64,000 bases of DNA from a virus (taxonomy: Duplodnaviria; Caudoviricetes): the IMG/VR virus record IMGVR_UViG_3300037313_001148, positions 1 through 64,000 of that record; one strand, given 5' to 3'. Shown here one piece after another: positions 7,843-35,304 of this stretch (position 1 is its first letter; each line of letters begins with the position of its first letter). The notes under the pieces were generated by a model that saw nothing but the letters and a program-made list of their open reading frames with translations, was not told where the DNA came from and made no database searches. The position numbers and the translations under genes were made by a program.

Positions 7843-7894
7843 AATCGAAACTCCAGTGAAAGCCGTGAGAGGCGAAAACCGGCGATAGCCGGAA

Positions 7895-31824: not shown

Positions 31825-32091
31825 ATGAGGTTCCGTAAAAAGCCAGTCGTGATTGAGGCGATACAGTGGACTGGATACAACATTATGGACGTGATGACGT
31901 TCATGGCTCCAGTTGAACCAGTCCACATGTCTGGCTTCGCAAATTCTGATGAGATCATCGGCATCGACACGCTGGAAGGCCGCATGACTGCGAAGCGTGG
32001 CGACTGGATTATCAAGGGCGTGAAGGGCGAGTTCTACCCGTGCAAAGACGATATTTTCAGGGCGACATACGATCCAGTTGATTATGAATAA
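31825..32091 (+). CDS. conserved phage protein
   Basis: RKKPVVIEAIQW..TLEG..GDWIIKGVKGEFYPCK.DIF.ATY. Confidence 0.8.
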   Translation: MRFRKKPVVIEAIQWTGYNIMDVMTFMAPVEPVHMSGFANSDEIIGIDTLEGRMTAKRGDWIIKGVKGEFYPCKDDIFRATYDPVDYE

Positions 32092-32103
32092 GTTCAAAGC
32101 GAA

Positions 32104-32182
32104 CACGCTTTGTAAGCCGTGAGTGGAAGCGTGAACCTGGCTACTGTTTGTTCTCCTTTCAGTGGCCAGGGTTAACCACGGT
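32104..32182 (+). ncRNA. pseudoknot RNA motif, copy A
   Basis: P1 cacgctt/aagcgtg, loop GTAAGCCGTGAGTG, 11-bp hairpin, GTTAACCACGG. Confidence 0.6.
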
Positions 32183-32199
32183 GGGTTTGAGCTTGATTT

Positions 32200-32234
32200 G
32201 AAGGCCGGGGAGTTTCTTCGGCTCCCCGGCCTTC
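32200..32234 (+). terminator. 13-bp hairpin (terminator-like, no U tract)
   Basis: gaaggccggggag/ctccccggccttc. Confidence 0.5.
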
Positions 32235-32273
32235 CTTAAGACATCCAACGTAAACACAATTCAGGAGATAATC

Positions 32274-32642
32274 ATGGGACGAGAATTAACCTCACATAAA
32301 GTGGGCGACCTGAATGATGTGCTCAAGATCGAAGTTCTGGACAAACCTGGCCCCGGCGGCGCAAATCATAGCTATATGATTACGCCAACCATCGGAAACG
32401 CGGTGGGTCTAAAGATCGATTTTCAGAATGGGCCTCTAAAGGAAACGATCTACCCAAACGGGTTGACCATCGAATCTCTTCTGGCTATCGCTGAGGATCG
32501 ACTCAAGGGCTTTCAGTCTGGACCTTTCGCCTGTCGGGAAAATGCCTTAGCATTGACTCATATTCAGAAATCAATGAATTGGCTTCACCATAGGACACGC
32601 GACAGATTGCAGCGTGGTGTCGAAGGCACGAATCAAGCCTAG
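32274..32642 (+). CDS. tad1: Tad1-family anti-defence sponge protein
   Basis: GPGGANHSY..FQNGP..G...ESLL.I..DRLKGFQSGPFACRENALALTHI...MNWL..R..DR..RGVEGT matches the Tad1 pattern throughout. Confidence 0.85.
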   Translation: MGRELTSHKVGDLNDVLKIEVLDKPGPGGANHSYMITPTIGNAVGLKIDFQNGPLKETIYPNGLTIESLLAIAEDRLKGFQSGPFACRENALALTHIQKSMNWLHHRTRDRLQRGVEGTNQA

Positions 32643-32689
32643 GATATCCAAGCACATTAATGTATAAGCAATCGTAAATATTTAGATAC

Positions 32690-32772
32690 ACACAGGGTAA
32701 GCCGTGAGTGCCTGTGTTTACTTGGCTTCAGGATTCTCCGCTCATCACCTGGAGTTCAAGGTTAACCACGGC
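32690..32772 (+). ncRNA. pseudoknot RNA motif, copy B
   Basis: P1 acacagg/cctgtgt, same loop and same GTTAACCACGG as copy A. Confidence 0.6.
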
Positions 32773-32798
32773 CGATCACTCGGAGTTGTCTCCAGTCG

Positions 32799-32839
32799 GA
32801 GTAGGGCCGGAAGGCATCACACTTCCGGCCTTACTCTTT
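32799..32839 (+). terminator. 15-bp hairpin followed by TTT
   Basis: gagtagggccggaag/cttccggccttactc. Confidence 0.55.
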
Positions 32840-32853
32840 GCCAAGGATCCATC

Positions 32854-33543
32854 ATGATTACTCGAGTTCTTGCTGTCCCCGTGATTGTCTCTGAGGGTCG
32901 GATCACATTTCACACCGCTTACATTGAAACAGGTGTAAATAATTGCGTCTTATCTTTGGTTCCCGGTGAACCTGTCATCATCTACCTTGATCCATCAAAA
33001 GAACCACAATTCTCCAAGCATCCGCAAGGAGGCTGGGTTTCTCCTGTCTGGGACCGCCTGGCGGAAGCTGAAGCGGCGGAAACAGAGATTGATTATATTC
33101 ACATTCATTGCCGTTGCCACAAGCGGGAAACTCTGACCGGGGACGACCTATATTCCCTCGAGCAGACCGGCCACACGGCGGATTGCCGCCATGGCATGCC
33201 TGTCTCCGGCTCACCCATCAACAAATTATTTCCCAGTGCTGCGAATGTTCTGACACAAGCCCGCAACACTCCCCTTCCTCCGTCGTCCCCTTCGTCGGCG
33301 AAGCCGACGACAGACGCACAGAACCCGATGAACGCGATCGCCAAGTGGCTGAACGGAACATGTGGAAGTATTCAGGATGCGTGTAAAGAGCTTGGTCTGG
33401 CCGTCGAAACTGATTCGACAAGAGATATTCTCAAATCAGAATACCATTTCATGCCTTGTACTGGTTGCGCGACGTGGGGATTCTTCCAGAACTCAACCAA
33501 TCCCATGTGTCGCGCCTGTGCTGCGGAAGTAGAATCAGCTTGA
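32854..33543 (+). CDS. hypothetical Cys/His-rich protein
   Basis: ATG 32854 after aagga; contains repeat copy 5 in frame. Confidence 0.6.
   Translation: MITRVLAVPVIVSEGRITFHTAYIETGVNNCVLSLVPGEPVIIYLDPSKEPQFSKHPQGGWVSPVWDRLAEAEAAETEIDYIHIHCRCHKRETLTGDDLYSLEQTGHTADCRHGMPVSGSPINKLFPSAANVLTQARNTPLPPSSPSSAKPTTDAQNPMNAIAKWLNGTCGSIQDACKELGLAVETDSTRDILKSEYHFMPCTGCATWGFFQNSTNPMCRACAAEVESA
33264..33310 (+). repeat. dispersed motif+GNA hairpin element, copy 5 (in frame, NTPLPPSS)
   Basis: caacactccccttcctccgtcgtcc + tcgtcggc-GAA-gccgacga. Confidence 0.88.
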
Positions 33544-33627
33544 CATCTTTACCTCCTTATTAACAAACATTAACCAGACAGTTACGCTTGTCTTGACGCA
33601 GTATCACGATTTCCCATAAAATCTCTC

Positions 33628-35304
33628 TTGAGAAATCAAGGGGGTTTTTCTTTGAGCGTTGCAACTTTTCCGATCCCTGGCTCCTCTTACCATGATCTCG
33701 CCATCAAGGCTGAGCGGTGTCGGCGATCGCTCGCCTACTTCACGCGAACCTTCTGGGATGAGATTGTCCCCGAGAAACTAACCTGGAATTGGCACATGGA
33801 TGCCGTGTGCGATCATCTCCAGGCTGTTTCCCAAGGATCAATACAACGACTTATAATCAATATTCCCCCTGGATCCGCGAAGTCTACGTTAGTAAGTGTG
33901 ATGTGGCCTGCATGGGAATGGATCGACCGGCCGGGTGAGCAATCTCTTTTTGGTTCATATGACGAGAAGCTTGCCCTTCGTGACTCGGTGCGCTGCCGCA
34001 AGGTCTTCGATTCTGAGCGATACCGGACGATCTTCCAGCCGGACTGGAAGATGGCAAAAGACCAAAATGCGAAAGGTTTCTACACTAACACGGCCAACGG
34101 GAATCGTTACACGTTCGGTCTGAACTCCTCCGGCAAGATGGGCTGGCGCGGAAACAAGGTTGTCCTGGACGATCCTAACGATATCAAGGCTCGGTTTGAC
34201 ACGCGGATCAAGGCGGATGCCTGGGACGTGTTCGCCAGCGTGCTTCAGACCCGCGTCAACGACCTGCCGACCGCGAAATTTCTGATTGTCCAGCAGAGAA
34301 CATCTTTTGATGATTTCACTGGCCGAATTCATGACATGGAATCCGACCCCGAAGTCATGGCGGTAATGGAGAAGATCGGCAAATGGGAAACGGTCGTGAT
34401 TCCGGCCGAGTTCGACCCTTCCCGGCGGTTCTTCACGAGCATTGGTTGGACTGACCCTCGCAAGGAAGCGGGGGAGAACTTCTTCCCCAAAAAGTACCCC
34501 GACGAATCTCTCGAGGGAATGAGGCTAGTCCTTGGAGACGAAGGGTACGAGGGTCAGTTCAACCAATCCCCGGCTCCCGCCGGAGGGCAAAGATTATCGC
34601 GTGATCTCTTCTGCAAGTATAAGCGAGTTTCCGGCGACATCATCGAGCTTACCAACAAATTCGGCAACAAATCTATCATCAAGCTTGGATTATGCTGGTC
34701 GTTCGTCTCGGTAGATCTCGCCGCCTCTGAGAAGCAAACAGCCGACTACACCGCATTTTCGGTCTGGGCCGTCACGCCTACCTATGATATGATCCTTCTC
34801 AATGTTGTTAATGAAAGAATGGGAGAACCTAAGATCATTGAGAAGGCTATTGCACTACACGCCTTTACTGGATATAACGGGCGGAAGCATCTTGCCTTTG
34901 TCGTTGAAGACAACGGTTTAGGACTGCCGATTGCTCAGAGCATGGCCAAACATGGACTTCCGGTCATGCAAGTCCATATTCATAGGACTGACAAGCTTGT
35001 GCGGTCGGCAACCGCCGTGATTCGCGCCAATGCCGGCGGGATCTACCTTCCCGAAGACGGACCAGAGTATCCCTGGAAAGAACCCTGGCTTCGTCAACAC
35101 GAGCGATTCCCTGGAGACGAGCACGACGACATGGTGGATGCGACATCGCTAGCCGCATCGGCTCTCTTCGACATGGGAATCGCTGGTTTGCATGGCGGGG
35201 AGTTCCTGAAGCATTCAAAGAAGAGTGCTCACGAGGTAATGGAGCCTCAGAAACAGGAACTCCCCGCCGCGACCAAACAAAACAAAAGATTATTTGGCAC
35301 ATGA
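33628..35304 (+). CDS. terL: terminase large subunit
   Basis: LIINIPPGSAKST Walker A, VVLDDP Walker B, SVDLA nuclease motif, FPGDEHDDMVDA; start codon uncertain. Confidence 0.93.
   Translation: MRNQGGFSLSVATFPIPGSSYHDLAIKAERCRRSLAYFTRTFWDEIVPEKLTWNWHMDAVCDHLQAVSQGSIQRLIINIPPGSAKSTLVSVMWPAWEWIDRPGEQSLFGSYDEKLALRDSVRCRKVFDSERYRTIFQPDWKMAKDQNAKGFYTNTANGNRYTFGLNSSGKMGWRGNKVVLDDPNDIKARFDTRIKADAWDVFASVLQTRVNDLPTAKFLIVQQRTSFDDFTGRIHDMESDPEVMAVMEKIGKWETVVIPAEFDPSRRFFTSIGWTDPRKEAGENFFPKKYPDESLEGMRLVLGDEGYEGQFNQSPAPAGGQRLSRDLFCKYKRVSGDIIELTNKFGNKSIIKLGLCWSFVSVDLAASEKQTADYTAFSVWAVTPTYDMILLNVVNERMGEPKIIEKAIALHAFTGYNGRKHLAFVVEDNGLGLPIAQSMAKHGLPVMQVHIHRTDKLVRSATAVIRANAGGIYLPEDGPEYPWKEPWLRQHERFPGDEHDDMVDATSLAASALFDMGIAGLHGGEFLKHSKKSAHEVMEPQKQELPAATKQNKRLFGT

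What the first reader, a model, noticed from the sequence alone, without database searches (positions are those of the whole stretch)
32095..32839. Duplicated covarying pseudoknot motif flanking tad1
Seen: two copies sharing GTAAGCCGTGAGTG and GTTAACCACGG, with entirely different yet perfectly paired P1 stems and different long hairpins; GCCGTG can pair with CACGG(C/T) as a pseudoknot. Each is followed by a 13-15 bp hairpin and then a gene. Copy A has a competing hairpin caaagcg/cgctttg (32095-32112). I could not match it to hammerhead, twister, pistol, hatchet or HDV cores or to common riboswitches. Inference: a new riboswitch, ribozyme or protein-binding RNA, possibly controlling anti-defence expression.
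Basis: partly seen in the sequence, partly recalled or inferred. Interest (0 to 1): 0.78.

Follow-up and report, generated by a model that had tools for sequence, protein, structure and literature searches.

The report
New pseudoknot RNA family in phages
The two look-alike stretches are real copies of a folded, pseudoknotted RNA, absent from the RNA catalogues searched, that many unrelated uncultured phages keep between genes, usually just before a strong hairpin; its job is unknown, and it is not specifically tied to the anti-defence gene next to it.

Summary
Observation confirmed. Both copies (32103-32185 and 32688-32775, + strand) have the anatomy described. With 28 further copies from about 22 other phage, prophage and metagenome contigs they form one RNA family. 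It has no match in Rfam 15, and a text search for its core sequence found no paper describing it.

The core is an H-type pseudoknot: P1 (variable), loop (GUA)A-GCCGUG-AGUG, P1', a variable P2 hairpin, then AAC-CACGG(C). The five core pseudoknot pairs form in all 30 aligned copies, with compensating variants (GCCAUG/CAUGGC, GCUAUG/CAUAGC). Most relatives add 'CAG' plus a conserved bulged hairpin, P3 (99% paired, 7 of 9 pairs covary). One contig carries at least six tandem copies.

The RNA lies on the coding strand and starts within about 15 nt of the preceding stop codon. It is usually followed by a long GC-rich hairpin, often a canonical terminator, and then by the next gene's ribosome site.

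The flanked ORF is a true Tad1 homologue. However, relatives flank unrelated genes, and three Tad1 loci in cultured phages lack the RNA, so a specific anti-defence link is not supported.

Function is unknown. My best guess, at moderate confidence, is a cis-acting module that controls read-through of the downstream hairpin. Ligand sensing, self-cleavage and a decoy role remain open.

The parts
32095..32112 (+). Copy A, 5' hairpin P0 (CAAAGCG-AACA-CGCTTTG). Its 3' arm overlaps the P1 5' arm, so P0 and P1 exclude each other. It starts 4 nt after the TAA stop at 32089-32091.
   Evidence: present in the MFE. Hairpins abutting P1 recur in relatives L027, L029, L031, L032, L041, L042 and L046.
32103..32185 (+). 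Copy A, pseudoknot core. P1 32106-11/32126-31; L1 GTAA 32112-15; PK 5' strand GCCGTG 32116-21; L2 AGTG 32122-25; P2 32136-46/32160-70; GTTAAC 32171-76; PK 3' strand CACGGT 32177-82.
   Evidence: Covariance model R1 57.6 bits, E 5e-15; constrained fold; pseudoknot covariation in the family.
32192..32240 (+). Copy A, downstream hairpin. A 15-bp GC-rich stem (32200-32234) is extended by CTTGA/TTAAG. There is no U tract. The Tad1 ATG lies 37 nt after it.
   Evidence: not flagged by the terminator scan.
32274..32642 (+). Flanked gene: a Tad1 (Thoeris anti-defence 1) homologue, 122 aa. It is context, not part of the RNA.
   Evidence: phmmer against PDB entries 7UAV, 8KBG and 8KBH, E 1.4e-22; phrog_2428 at E 7e-27 and a weak Pfam Acb2_Tad1_hairpin hit.
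32688..32775 (+). Copy B, pseudoknot core. P1 32690-96/32711-17; L1 GTAA 32697-700; PK 5' strand GCCGTG 32701-06; L2 AGTG 32707-10; P2 32721-32/32748-60; GTTAAC 32761-66; PK 3' strand CACGGC 32767-72.
   Evidence: Covariance model R1 57.1 bits, E 8e-15; constrained fold.
32778..32796 (+). Copy B, small bulged hairpin (ACT(C)GGAG-TTGT-CTCCAGT) between the core and the long hairpin. It sits where relatives have P3 but lacks the P3 signature (CAG, GA bulge).
32798..32837 (+). Copy B, downstream hairpin. A 16-bp stem followed by CTTTGCC (only a weak U run). The ATG of the next gene (32854) lies 17 nt after it, which leaves no room for a promoter.
   Evidence: not flagged by the terminator scan.

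Best explanation
Shown: the two copies belong to a conserved family of structured RNAs in tailed phages that matches no catalogued family. The RNA is read from the coding strand as part of the operon transcript. Its core is an H-type pseudoknot. A hairpin P1 has a 13-14 nt loop whose central GCCGUG pairs with CACGGC lying 3' of a second, variable hairpin P2. The flanking loop residues A, AGUG and AAC are conserved. Most relatives add CAG and a bulged hairpin P3.

Inferred: the folded pseudoknot is a cis-acting control module for the strong hairpin or terminator that almost always follows it. It would set how much transcription, and with it translation, continues into the next gene. Here that means first Tad1, then the 229-aa gene and the terminase. 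The most likely route is action on the elongating RNA polymerase or a conserved host factor, as in the HK022 put or Tn916 canT antiterminator RNAs. Classical antiterminator/terminator re-pairing is less likely. Because the RNA begins within the footprint of a ribosome stopping at the preceding ORF, its folding may also report whether that ORF is being translated.
For: Family and structure.
- 30 copies align to one model.
- The five core pseudoknot pairs form in 30 of 30 copies, with two positions changed on both sides (C-G to U-A five times, G-C to A-U nine times).
- The search patterns did not force this compensation: they allowed uncompensated combinations.
- Five of the six copies in the L006 array were found by position, not by pattern.
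- P3 is 99% paired and 7 of 9 pairs covary. No shuffle out of 500 reaches the observed score.
- P1 and P2 are present but unrelated in sequence.
- G-U pairs occur only on the coding strand.

Cis-control reading.
- The RNA is always on the strand of both flanking genes.
- A long GC-rich hairpin follows in about 85% of lineages (my count).
- About 10 of these are canonical terminators with U tracts: L005, L021, L028, L029, L031, L046, L014, L041 and L006 unit 1.
- The next gene's Shine-Dalgarno and ATG follow within 17-40 nt in the window, L039, L041 and L046. That leaves no room for a promoter, so downstream genes need read-through.
- Two copies with covarying stems, each before a hairpin, is the layout of putL/putR.

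Against simple re-pairing.
- In minimum-energy folds the hairpin coexists with P2 and the GCCGUG/CACGG helix.
- I found no consistent antiterminator complement in the relatives' sequences.

Conserved host target.
- The loop residues are the same in phages of 40-68% GC.
- No protein family is shared by all 11 RNA-bearing phage records.

Translation link.
- The upstream stop lies 15 nt or less from the first helix, or inside the loop's UAA or UGA, in most lineages.
- Two related lineages (L030/L027/L035 and L034) with a distant upstream gene carry mini-ORFs with Shine-Dalgarno sites (MPPP*, MQPP*) that end 6-7 nt before the RNA.
Against: - There is no expression, 3'-end or termination evidence of any kind.
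- Neither window hairpin has a U tract. Several relatives have no hairpin before the next start codon (L003, L010, L008, L006 units 4-5).
- A processive antiterminator would not need two copies 585 nt apart in one operon, let alone six in tandem (L006).
- The RNA does not resemble put: the model finds nothing at the HK022 put sites.
- The small, highly conserved core fits a riboswitch aptamer or a self-cleaving ribozyme equally well.
- Members were found with sequence patterns that fixed parts of the core, so conservation of L2 (AGUG) is poorly tested. L1 and the UAA box did vary once they were left free.
Confidence: 0.35

Rival explanations
1. It is a riboswitch. The pseudoknot core, with P3 where present, is an aptamer for a small molecule or ion. 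Ligand binding changes termination at the following hairpin or access to the next ribosome site.
For: About 12 unpaired residues are conserved around a 6-bp pseudoknot, with variable peripheral helices. This is typical of H-type pseudoknot aptamers (established knowledge of SAM-II and preQ1-II; anatomy). The RNA is frequently followed by an intrinsic terminator. In L008 the pseudoknot 3' strand can instead join a local hairpin that ends in a U tract, giving pseudoknot-versus-terminator logic. In copy A, P0 and P1 are mutually exclusive.
Against: Neighbouring genes share no function. No conserved alternative pairing links the aptamer to the terminator, and the two are separated by P3 or by 20-60 nt. 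Six tandem copies exceed any tandem riboswitch arrangement I know of. There is no Rfam riboswitch match.
Confidence: 0.2
2. It is a self-cleaving ribozyme or another RNA-processing module. It cuts the polycistronic phage transcript between genes, and the neighbouring hairpin protects a new end.
For: The size and conservation pattern resemble small nucleolytic ribozymes. The RNA occurs in phages, between genes of any function, sometimes several per transcript and once as a six-unit array. The following hairpins are long (15-21 bp in the window, L021 and L014) and often lack U tracts, so they look more like stability or RNase III elements than terminators. Adjacent array units use different pseudoknot sequences, as expected if each unit must fold on its own within one transcript.
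Against: There is no match to any ribozyme model in Rfam, even at E<=10. The loop between the PK 5' strand and P1' is only 4 nt, too short for an HDV-like P3/L3. The helix order differs from pistol. No candidate cleavage site can be named.
Confidence: 0.17
3. It is a stable trans-acting RNA that acts as a decoy or sponge. It would bind a conserved host protein or a nucleotide signal, possibly for counter-defence. It would be released from the operon transcript and ended by the hairpin.
For: Multi-copy tandem arrays suit titration. P0, the core, P3 and the hairpin together form a compact RNA of about 150-200 nt that fills the whole intergenic space. In the window the copies sit in an accessory cluster next to Tad1, itself a sponge for immune signals. 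No dedicated phage protein partner was found.
Against: No promoter precedes the copies, and several start inside or right after the upstream ORF. There is no association with defence or anti-defence genes elsewhere. There is no expression evidence.
Confidence: 0.12
4. It works at the DNA level, or is a mobile or selfish element: a packaging site near the terminase, a partition site after a ParB-like gene, a single-strand initiation signal, or a miniature mobile cassette.
For: The window copies lie just upstream of the packaging genes. The L006 array follows a ParB-like gene (Pfam HTH_ParB). HNH or other endonuclease genes are adjacent in L004, L040 and L046.
Against: Compensatory changes keep four helices and a pseudoknot. 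Many pairs are G-U on the coding strand only, which would be A-C on the other strand. The orientation always matches transcription. Other copies are far from terminase genes or lie inside structural operons.
Confidence: 0.05

Closest known systems
HK022 put RNA (putL/putR), a cis-acting RNA that makes RNA polymerase termination-resistant (PMC9378689)
   Same: About 70-nt phage RNA with two stem-loops. It is present twice per genome with covarying stems and conserved unpaired residues, is transcribed as part of the operon, and lies upstream of terminators. No dedicated phage protein partner is evident.
   Different: There is no sequence or structure match: the model scores 8.9 bits in an unrelated HK022 tail gene and nothing at the put sites. 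The put RNA is not described, to my knowledge, as having this loop-to-3'-strand pseudoknot; that is recollection, I did not read the paper's structure section. Here both copies lie in one operon, 585 nt apart, and a relative has six in tandem, which a processive device would not need. RNAP binding is untested.
canT of Tn916 and EAR of Bacillus eps operons (RNA-based processive antiterminators; PMC11658703)
   Same: A cis-acting, orientation-specific RNA in a mobile element or operon that lets transcription pass internal terminators.
   Different: These are unrelated elements of Firmicutes, and no homology was tested or expected. The function of the present RNA is only inferred.
H-type pseudoknot riboswitches with terminator platforms (preQ1-II, SAM-II/V, fluoride, ZTP)
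   Same: A hairpin loop pairs with a 3' strand. Loop residues are conserved. preQ1-II also has an embedded hairpin in loop 3. A terminator is often downstream.
   Different: There is no Rfam match, no coherent gene association, no conserved antiterminator pairing, and a 4-nt L2 (AGUG) between the two stems.
Pistol self-cleaving ribozyme
   Same: The loop of the P1 hairpin forms a 6-bp pseudoknot with a downstream strand preceded by UUAA-like residues. It occurs in phage-associated contexts.
   Different: The helix order differs: here a closed P2 hairpin lies between P1 and the PK 3' strand, and P3 follows it. The P1 loop keeps 4+4 unpaired conserved residues. The Rfam pistol model gives no hit at E<=10.
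The 10,006 candidate structured RNAs of viruses and phages from IMG/VR (PMC10690425)
   Same: The same kind of object from the same database: covariation-supported intergenic phage RNAs, many overlapping terminators.
   Different: Whether this motif is in that list could not be checked, because no supplementary files are held. The paper's text describes nothing like it.

Membership tests
Any Rfam 15 family | Score at or above the family's gathering threshold | tested here: not met
   No hits in the whole window. Only noise of 17 bits or less at E<=10 in 31900-33000. No hit on the RNA in seven relatives' loci at E<=1.
HK022 put RNA | Sequence and structure similarity to putL/putR | tested here: not met
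   Model R1 searched over the whole HK022 genome gives one 8.9-bit hit (E 0.3) inside a tail gene and none in the early-region put sites.
HK022 put RNA | Binds RNAP (beta' zinc-binding domain) and suppresses pausing and termination without protein factors | not testable with these tools
   This needs in vitro transcription or structural work.
HK022 put RNA | Located in the nascent transcript upstream of terminators, two copies per genome | tested here: inconclusive
   There are two copies, each before a strong hairpin. However, both lie in one operon, the hairpins lack U tracts, and the other phage records carry one copy each.
Riboswitch (generic) | Conserved aptamer plus an expression platform with mutually exclusive pairings | tested here: inconclusive
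   An aptamer-like core is present. Alternative pairings appear only in single cases (copy A P0/P1; L008). No conserved antiterminator was found.
Riboswitch (generic) | Association with genes of one pathway that points to a ligand | tested here: not met
   Flanking genes are heterogeneous or unknown.
Pistol / HDV-like / other small self-cleaving ribozymes | Class-specific helix order and conserved core | tested here: not met
   No Rfam ribozyme model matches. Only 4 nt lie between the PK 5' strand and P1', which leaves no room for an HDV P3/L3. P2 is a closed hairpin, unlike pistol P2.
Pistol / HDV-like / other small self-cleaving ribozymes | Site-specific self-cleavage | not testable with these tools
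   This needs an in vitro cleavage assay.
Type III toxin-antitoxin antitoxin RNA arrays (ToxI-like) | Tandem 34-45 nt pseudoknot repeats directly upstream of an endoribonuclease toxin gene | tested here: not met
   The array units in L006 are 140-175 nt. In the window the copies are single and flank Tad1. No ToxN-like gene was seen among the neighbours.
Tad1 (Thoeris anti-defence 1), for the flanked ORF only | Significant full-length sequence similarity to structurally characterised Tad1 | tested here: met
   phmmer E 1.4e-22 over residues 18-120 against 7UAV, 8KBG and 8KBH.

The most novel reading that the evidence does not exclude
The RNA is a phage-made aptamer that works as a sponge or decoy, an RNA counterpart of Tad1/Acb2-type protein sponges. 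It would bind a conserved host factor or an immune signalling nucleotide, and would be deployed singly beside counter-defence genes or as multi-copy arrays to raise capacity. A less exotic but still novel alternative is a new class of riboswitch, ribozyme or RNAP-binding antiterminator.
Probability: 0.07. Interest if true: 0.95.

Novelty: new member of a known kind. Interest (0 to 1): 0.6.

Why it matters
If confirmed, this adds a well-defined, covariation-supported RNA class to the few phage RNAs with a conserved tertiary core. It occurs in phages from 40% to 68% GC and in at least one Desulfamplus MAG (locus L015; I did not check whether that contig is a prophage). This suggests it engages something universal: RNA polymerase, the ribosome, a host factor or a common metabolite. 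RNA-only control of transcription read-through is known from very few systems (put, EAR, canT). A widespread phage module of that kind would be a useful discovery and a compact, portable part for synthetic biology. If it is instead a riboswitch or ribozyme, it would be a new class. For this phage, the module brackets the Tad1 gene and sits at the entry to the packaging genes, so it probably sets their expression level or timing.

Tried and rejected
- Rfam at gathering and permissive thresholds on the window and on seven relatives: nothing.
- Literature searches by sequence string and by topic: no description. Supplements of the IMG/VR structured-RNA catalogue are not held.
- Expression: no RNA holder is listed among public runs; only soil and rhizosphere DNA contigs appear. 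Laying four of these on the region showed identical sequence over the RNA, with no variants or joints there.
- The search for related loci with the ParB-like neighbour of the array found no relatives.
- Terminase synteny: TerL of the window's family is present in only one of five other records tested, so the RNA is not tied to the packaging module.
- Partner protein: all-against-all BLAST of ORFs from 11 RNA-bearing phage records plus 8 shorter loci found no family common to all. A small HTH or sigma-like gene and a 70-aa gene sit near the RNA only in one related subgroup.
- Antiterminator pairing: I looked by eye for complements of the hairpin's 5' half within the aptamer. Some cases exist (pyrimidine-rich P3 or P2 loops against purine-rich stems), but nothing is consistent.
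- Pattern matches rejected as chance: L016 (inside an actinobacterial coding region, no P1), L033, L036, and L037/L038 (a probable homing-endonuclease ORF with a non-complementary 'pseudoknot'). L043 is left as doubtful. The near-matches in the window at 7858 and 43834 lie in coding sequence without the 3' box.
- HDV-like, pistol, group II domain 5, K-turn and T-box resemblances were considered and dropped on helix order, spacing or lack of Rfam hits.
- All collection-scan quotas were used, so the family could not be enlarged with the covariance model.

Full report
**What is in the window.** The window is the first 64 kb of a 90.7-kb uncultured virus record. Near-identical DNA occurs in soil and rhizosphere metagenomes. 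On the + strand, between an 88-aa ORF (31825-32091, phrog_419) and the large terminase gene (33628-35304), lie two copies of one motif.

Copy A reads as follows:
- P1: CGCUUU (32106-11) with GAAGCG (32126-31)
- loop: GUAA-GCCGUG-AGUG (32112-25)
- P2: an 11-bp hairpin (32136-46/32160-70)
- 3' box: GUUAAC-CACGGU (32171-82)
- then a 15-bp GC-rich hairpin (32200-34), extended by five more pairs
- then, 37 nt later, the ATG of a 122-aa ORF

Copy B has the same loop (32697-710) and the same 3' box (32761-72). Its P1 (ACACAGG/CCUGUGU) and P2 are entirely different. A small hairpin and a 16-bp hairpin (32798-837) follow, and 17 nt later comes the ATG (32854) of a 229-aa ORF. It shares six bases with the P1 5' arm and appears in the minimum-energy fold.

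One wording needs care. Neither downstream hairpin has a U tract, and a consensus terminator scan does not list them.

**Is it known?** Rfam 15 gives nothing at gathering thresholds over the whole window. At E<=10 over the region it gives only noise. It finds nothing on the RNA in seven relatives' loci. Full-text searches for the core sequence and for the topic found no description. A 2023 catalogue of about 10,000 candidate structured RNAs from IMG/VR could contain it, but its supplementary lists are not held.

**Relatives.** Pattern scans of viral, metagenome and genome collections recovered the motif in about 22 further lineages. I checked each hit by eye and with a covariance model, R1, built. 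These lineages are phage contigs of 40-68% GC, a complete provirus (G007), and a Desulfamplus MAG contig. Five pattern hits were rejected as chance.

P1 and P2 are present almost everywhere but share no sequence. P1 is 2-7 bp long and uses two registers.

The pseudoknot is the decisive point. Besides GCCGUG/CACGGC, the family contains GCCAUG/CAUGGC, GCUAUG/CAUAGC and two G-U variants. In a 30-sequence model-based alignment the five core pairs form in 30 of 30 copies, with 5 and 9 doubly compensated cells at two positions. The search patterns allowed uncompensated combinations, so the compensation is not built in. In contig L006, five of the six tandem copies were found by position rather than by pattern, and they show three different matched pairs.

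When parts of the core were left free in the pattern, they varied. L1 can be GUAA, GUUA, UA, CCA or UGA, with the last A kept. The box before the 3' strand can be UUAAC, UAAC or AAAC. L2 (AGUG) did not vary, but that test was small.

**An extended form.** In most relatives the 3' strand continues with CAG and a third element, P3. It consists of a 6-bp outer stem that starts with the G of CAG, an inner stem that opens with an invariant G-U pair followed by C-G, and a 2-nt GA bulge on the 3' side (GG in L006). In 13 sequences P3 is 99% paired, 7 of 9 pairs change on both sides, and none of 500 shuffles reaches the observed covariation. The window's copies lack this P3 signature. Several members also have a hairpin (P0) abutting P1, as copy A does.

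**Context.** The RNA is always on the strand of both neighbouring genes. A strong hairpin follows in roughly 85% of lineages (my count). About ten of these are textbook intrinsic terminators with U tracts; the others, including both window copies, have long stems and no U run. The next gene's ribosome site often follows within 17-40 nt, which leaves no room for a promoter.

The 5' edge is equally tight. The stop codon of the preceding ORF lies 15 nt or less before the first helix in most lineages. In L004, L006 and L012 it is the UAA inside L1. Two related lineages (L030/L027/L035 and L034) with a distant upstream gene carry a mini-ORF with a Shine-Dalgarno site (MPPP-stop, MQPP-stop) that ends 6-7 nt before the RNA. 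I did not test the significance of this pattern statistically.

The neighbouring genes have no common function. They include structural proteins, HNH and other endonucleases, a replication initiator, a ParB-like protein, a Sak4-like protein, a gamma-glutamyl cyclotransferase and many unknowns. No protein family is shared by all 11 RNA-bearing phage records. Only one related subgroup keeps a small HTH or sigma-like gene and a 70-aa gene nearby.

**The Tad1 link.** The ORF at 32274-32642 is a real Tad1 homologue (E 1.4e-22 to PDB Tad1 structures). No other member of the RNA family sits beside a Tad1-like gene (phrog_2428 never recurs). Tad1 loci in Agrobacterium phage OLIVR5 and Bacillus phages BSP36 and Mater have short intergenic spacers and no model match. 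The adjacency is therefore best read as one of many contexts, not as a dedicated anti-defence regulator.

**Mechanism.** The following is shown:
- it is a transcribed-strand RNA structure, because G-U pairs occur only on that strand
- it has a compact pseudoknot core with conserved unpaired residues
- its position is intergenic and within operons
- it is frequently coupled to a downstream hairpin or terminator

The rest is inferred. I favour a cis-acting module that sets read-through of the following hairpin (confidence about 0.35). Downstream genes often have no promoter of their own. The layout of two covarying copies, each before a hairpin, parallels putL/putR. The conserved residues are the same across very different phages, with no shared phage protein, which points to a universal target such as RNA polymerase or a Nus-type factor. 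Minimum-energy folds show the hairpin coexisting with the RNA rather than competing with it, which argues against a classical antiterminator switch. The closeness of the upstream stop codon, and in copy A the P0/P1 exclusion, suggest that folding may depend on a terminating ribosome.

Several points count against this reading:
- the RNA is not a put homologue
- processive antitermination needs neither two copies in one operon nor six in tandem
- several members have no hairpin
- no expression data exist

The rivals are a riboswitch (0.20), a self-cleaving or processing module (0.17), a trans-acting decoy or sponge (0.12) and a DNA-level or mobile element (0.05). The tandem array fits the ribozyme and decoy readings best. 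Its adjacent units carry different pseudoknot sequences, as if to avoid cross-pairing within one transcript.

**Verdict.** This is a genuine family of phage RNAs, well supported by covariation and absent from the catalogues and papers I could search. Its function is unknown. I class it as a new member of a known kind, namely structured RNAs inside phage operons. The scan has flagged other uncatalogued phage pseudoknot RNAs on other DNA. None shares sequence with this one.

Noticed in passing
L006:710-1632 (metagenome contig Ga0170475_110325625); L012 is a second strain: There is a tandem array of at least six units of the RNA (core plus P3), 140-175 nt each, directly after a ParB-like gene whose stop codon is the UAA of the first unit's loop. 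Adjacent units use different matched pseudoknot sequences. The contig ends inside the array.
   Followed up: partly
L030:1340-1380 (with identical sequence in L027 and L035) and the L034 homologous site, just 5' of the RNA: Mini-ORFs with Shine-Dalgarno sites, ATG CCT CCA CCA TAA (MPPP*) and ATG CAA CCA CCT TAA (MQPP*), end 6-7 nt before the RNA. In L028 a 25-codon ORF ends at the UGA inside loop L2. In L003 a 5-codon ORF ends at the UAA of L1. This may be a leader-peptide or ribosome-sensing arrangement. Significance was not tested.
   Followed up: partly
window 32274-32642 (+): This ORF is a clear Tad1 (Thoeris anti-defence 1) homologue, E 1.4e-22 to PDB 7UAV/8KBG. It lies in an accessory cluster just upstream of the packaging genes.
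   Followed up: yes
window 31825-32091 (+): This 88-aa ORF (phrog_419, phrog_1810) has a segment that stays 72-76% identical at the DNA level to genes of Burkholderia, Gordonia and Microbacterium phages. In soil metagenome contigs the segment 31999-32045 is shared by many otherwise unrelated contigs. It looks like a very widespread small phage domain.
   Followed up: no
window 33593-33644 (+): A sigma-70-like promoter match (TTGACG, 18 nt, TAAAAT) is immediately followed by a terminator-like hairpin with a U tract, at the annotated start of the large terminase ORF. The true TerL start and the origin of late transcription here are unclear.
   Followed up: no
G008:C1:33800-34020 (- strand), a complete 48.5-kb, 68% GC phage: An iteron-like region carries four copies of GGGGACTGAT and three of GGTCAGTCTC around a chance CGTTAACCACGG match. 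It may be a replication origin.
   Followed up: no
L032:4973-5416 (-), L030:953-1285 (+), L034:1180-1464 (-), L040:2015-2350 (-), L031:1917-2348 (+): A family of small proteins with a C-terminal helix-turn-helix lies next to the RNA in one related subgroup of phages, together with a conserved 70-aa protein. One member hits Pfam Sigma70_r3 at E 2e-5, just under the curated cutoff (25.2 vs 25.3 bits).
   Followed up: partly
L037:5884-5944 and L038:3275-3335: A chance pattern match falls at the start of an ORF that begins MVSIEWLAGFFDGEG. From memory this resembles a LAGLIDADG-type homing endonuclease; no family search was run on it.
   Followed up: no
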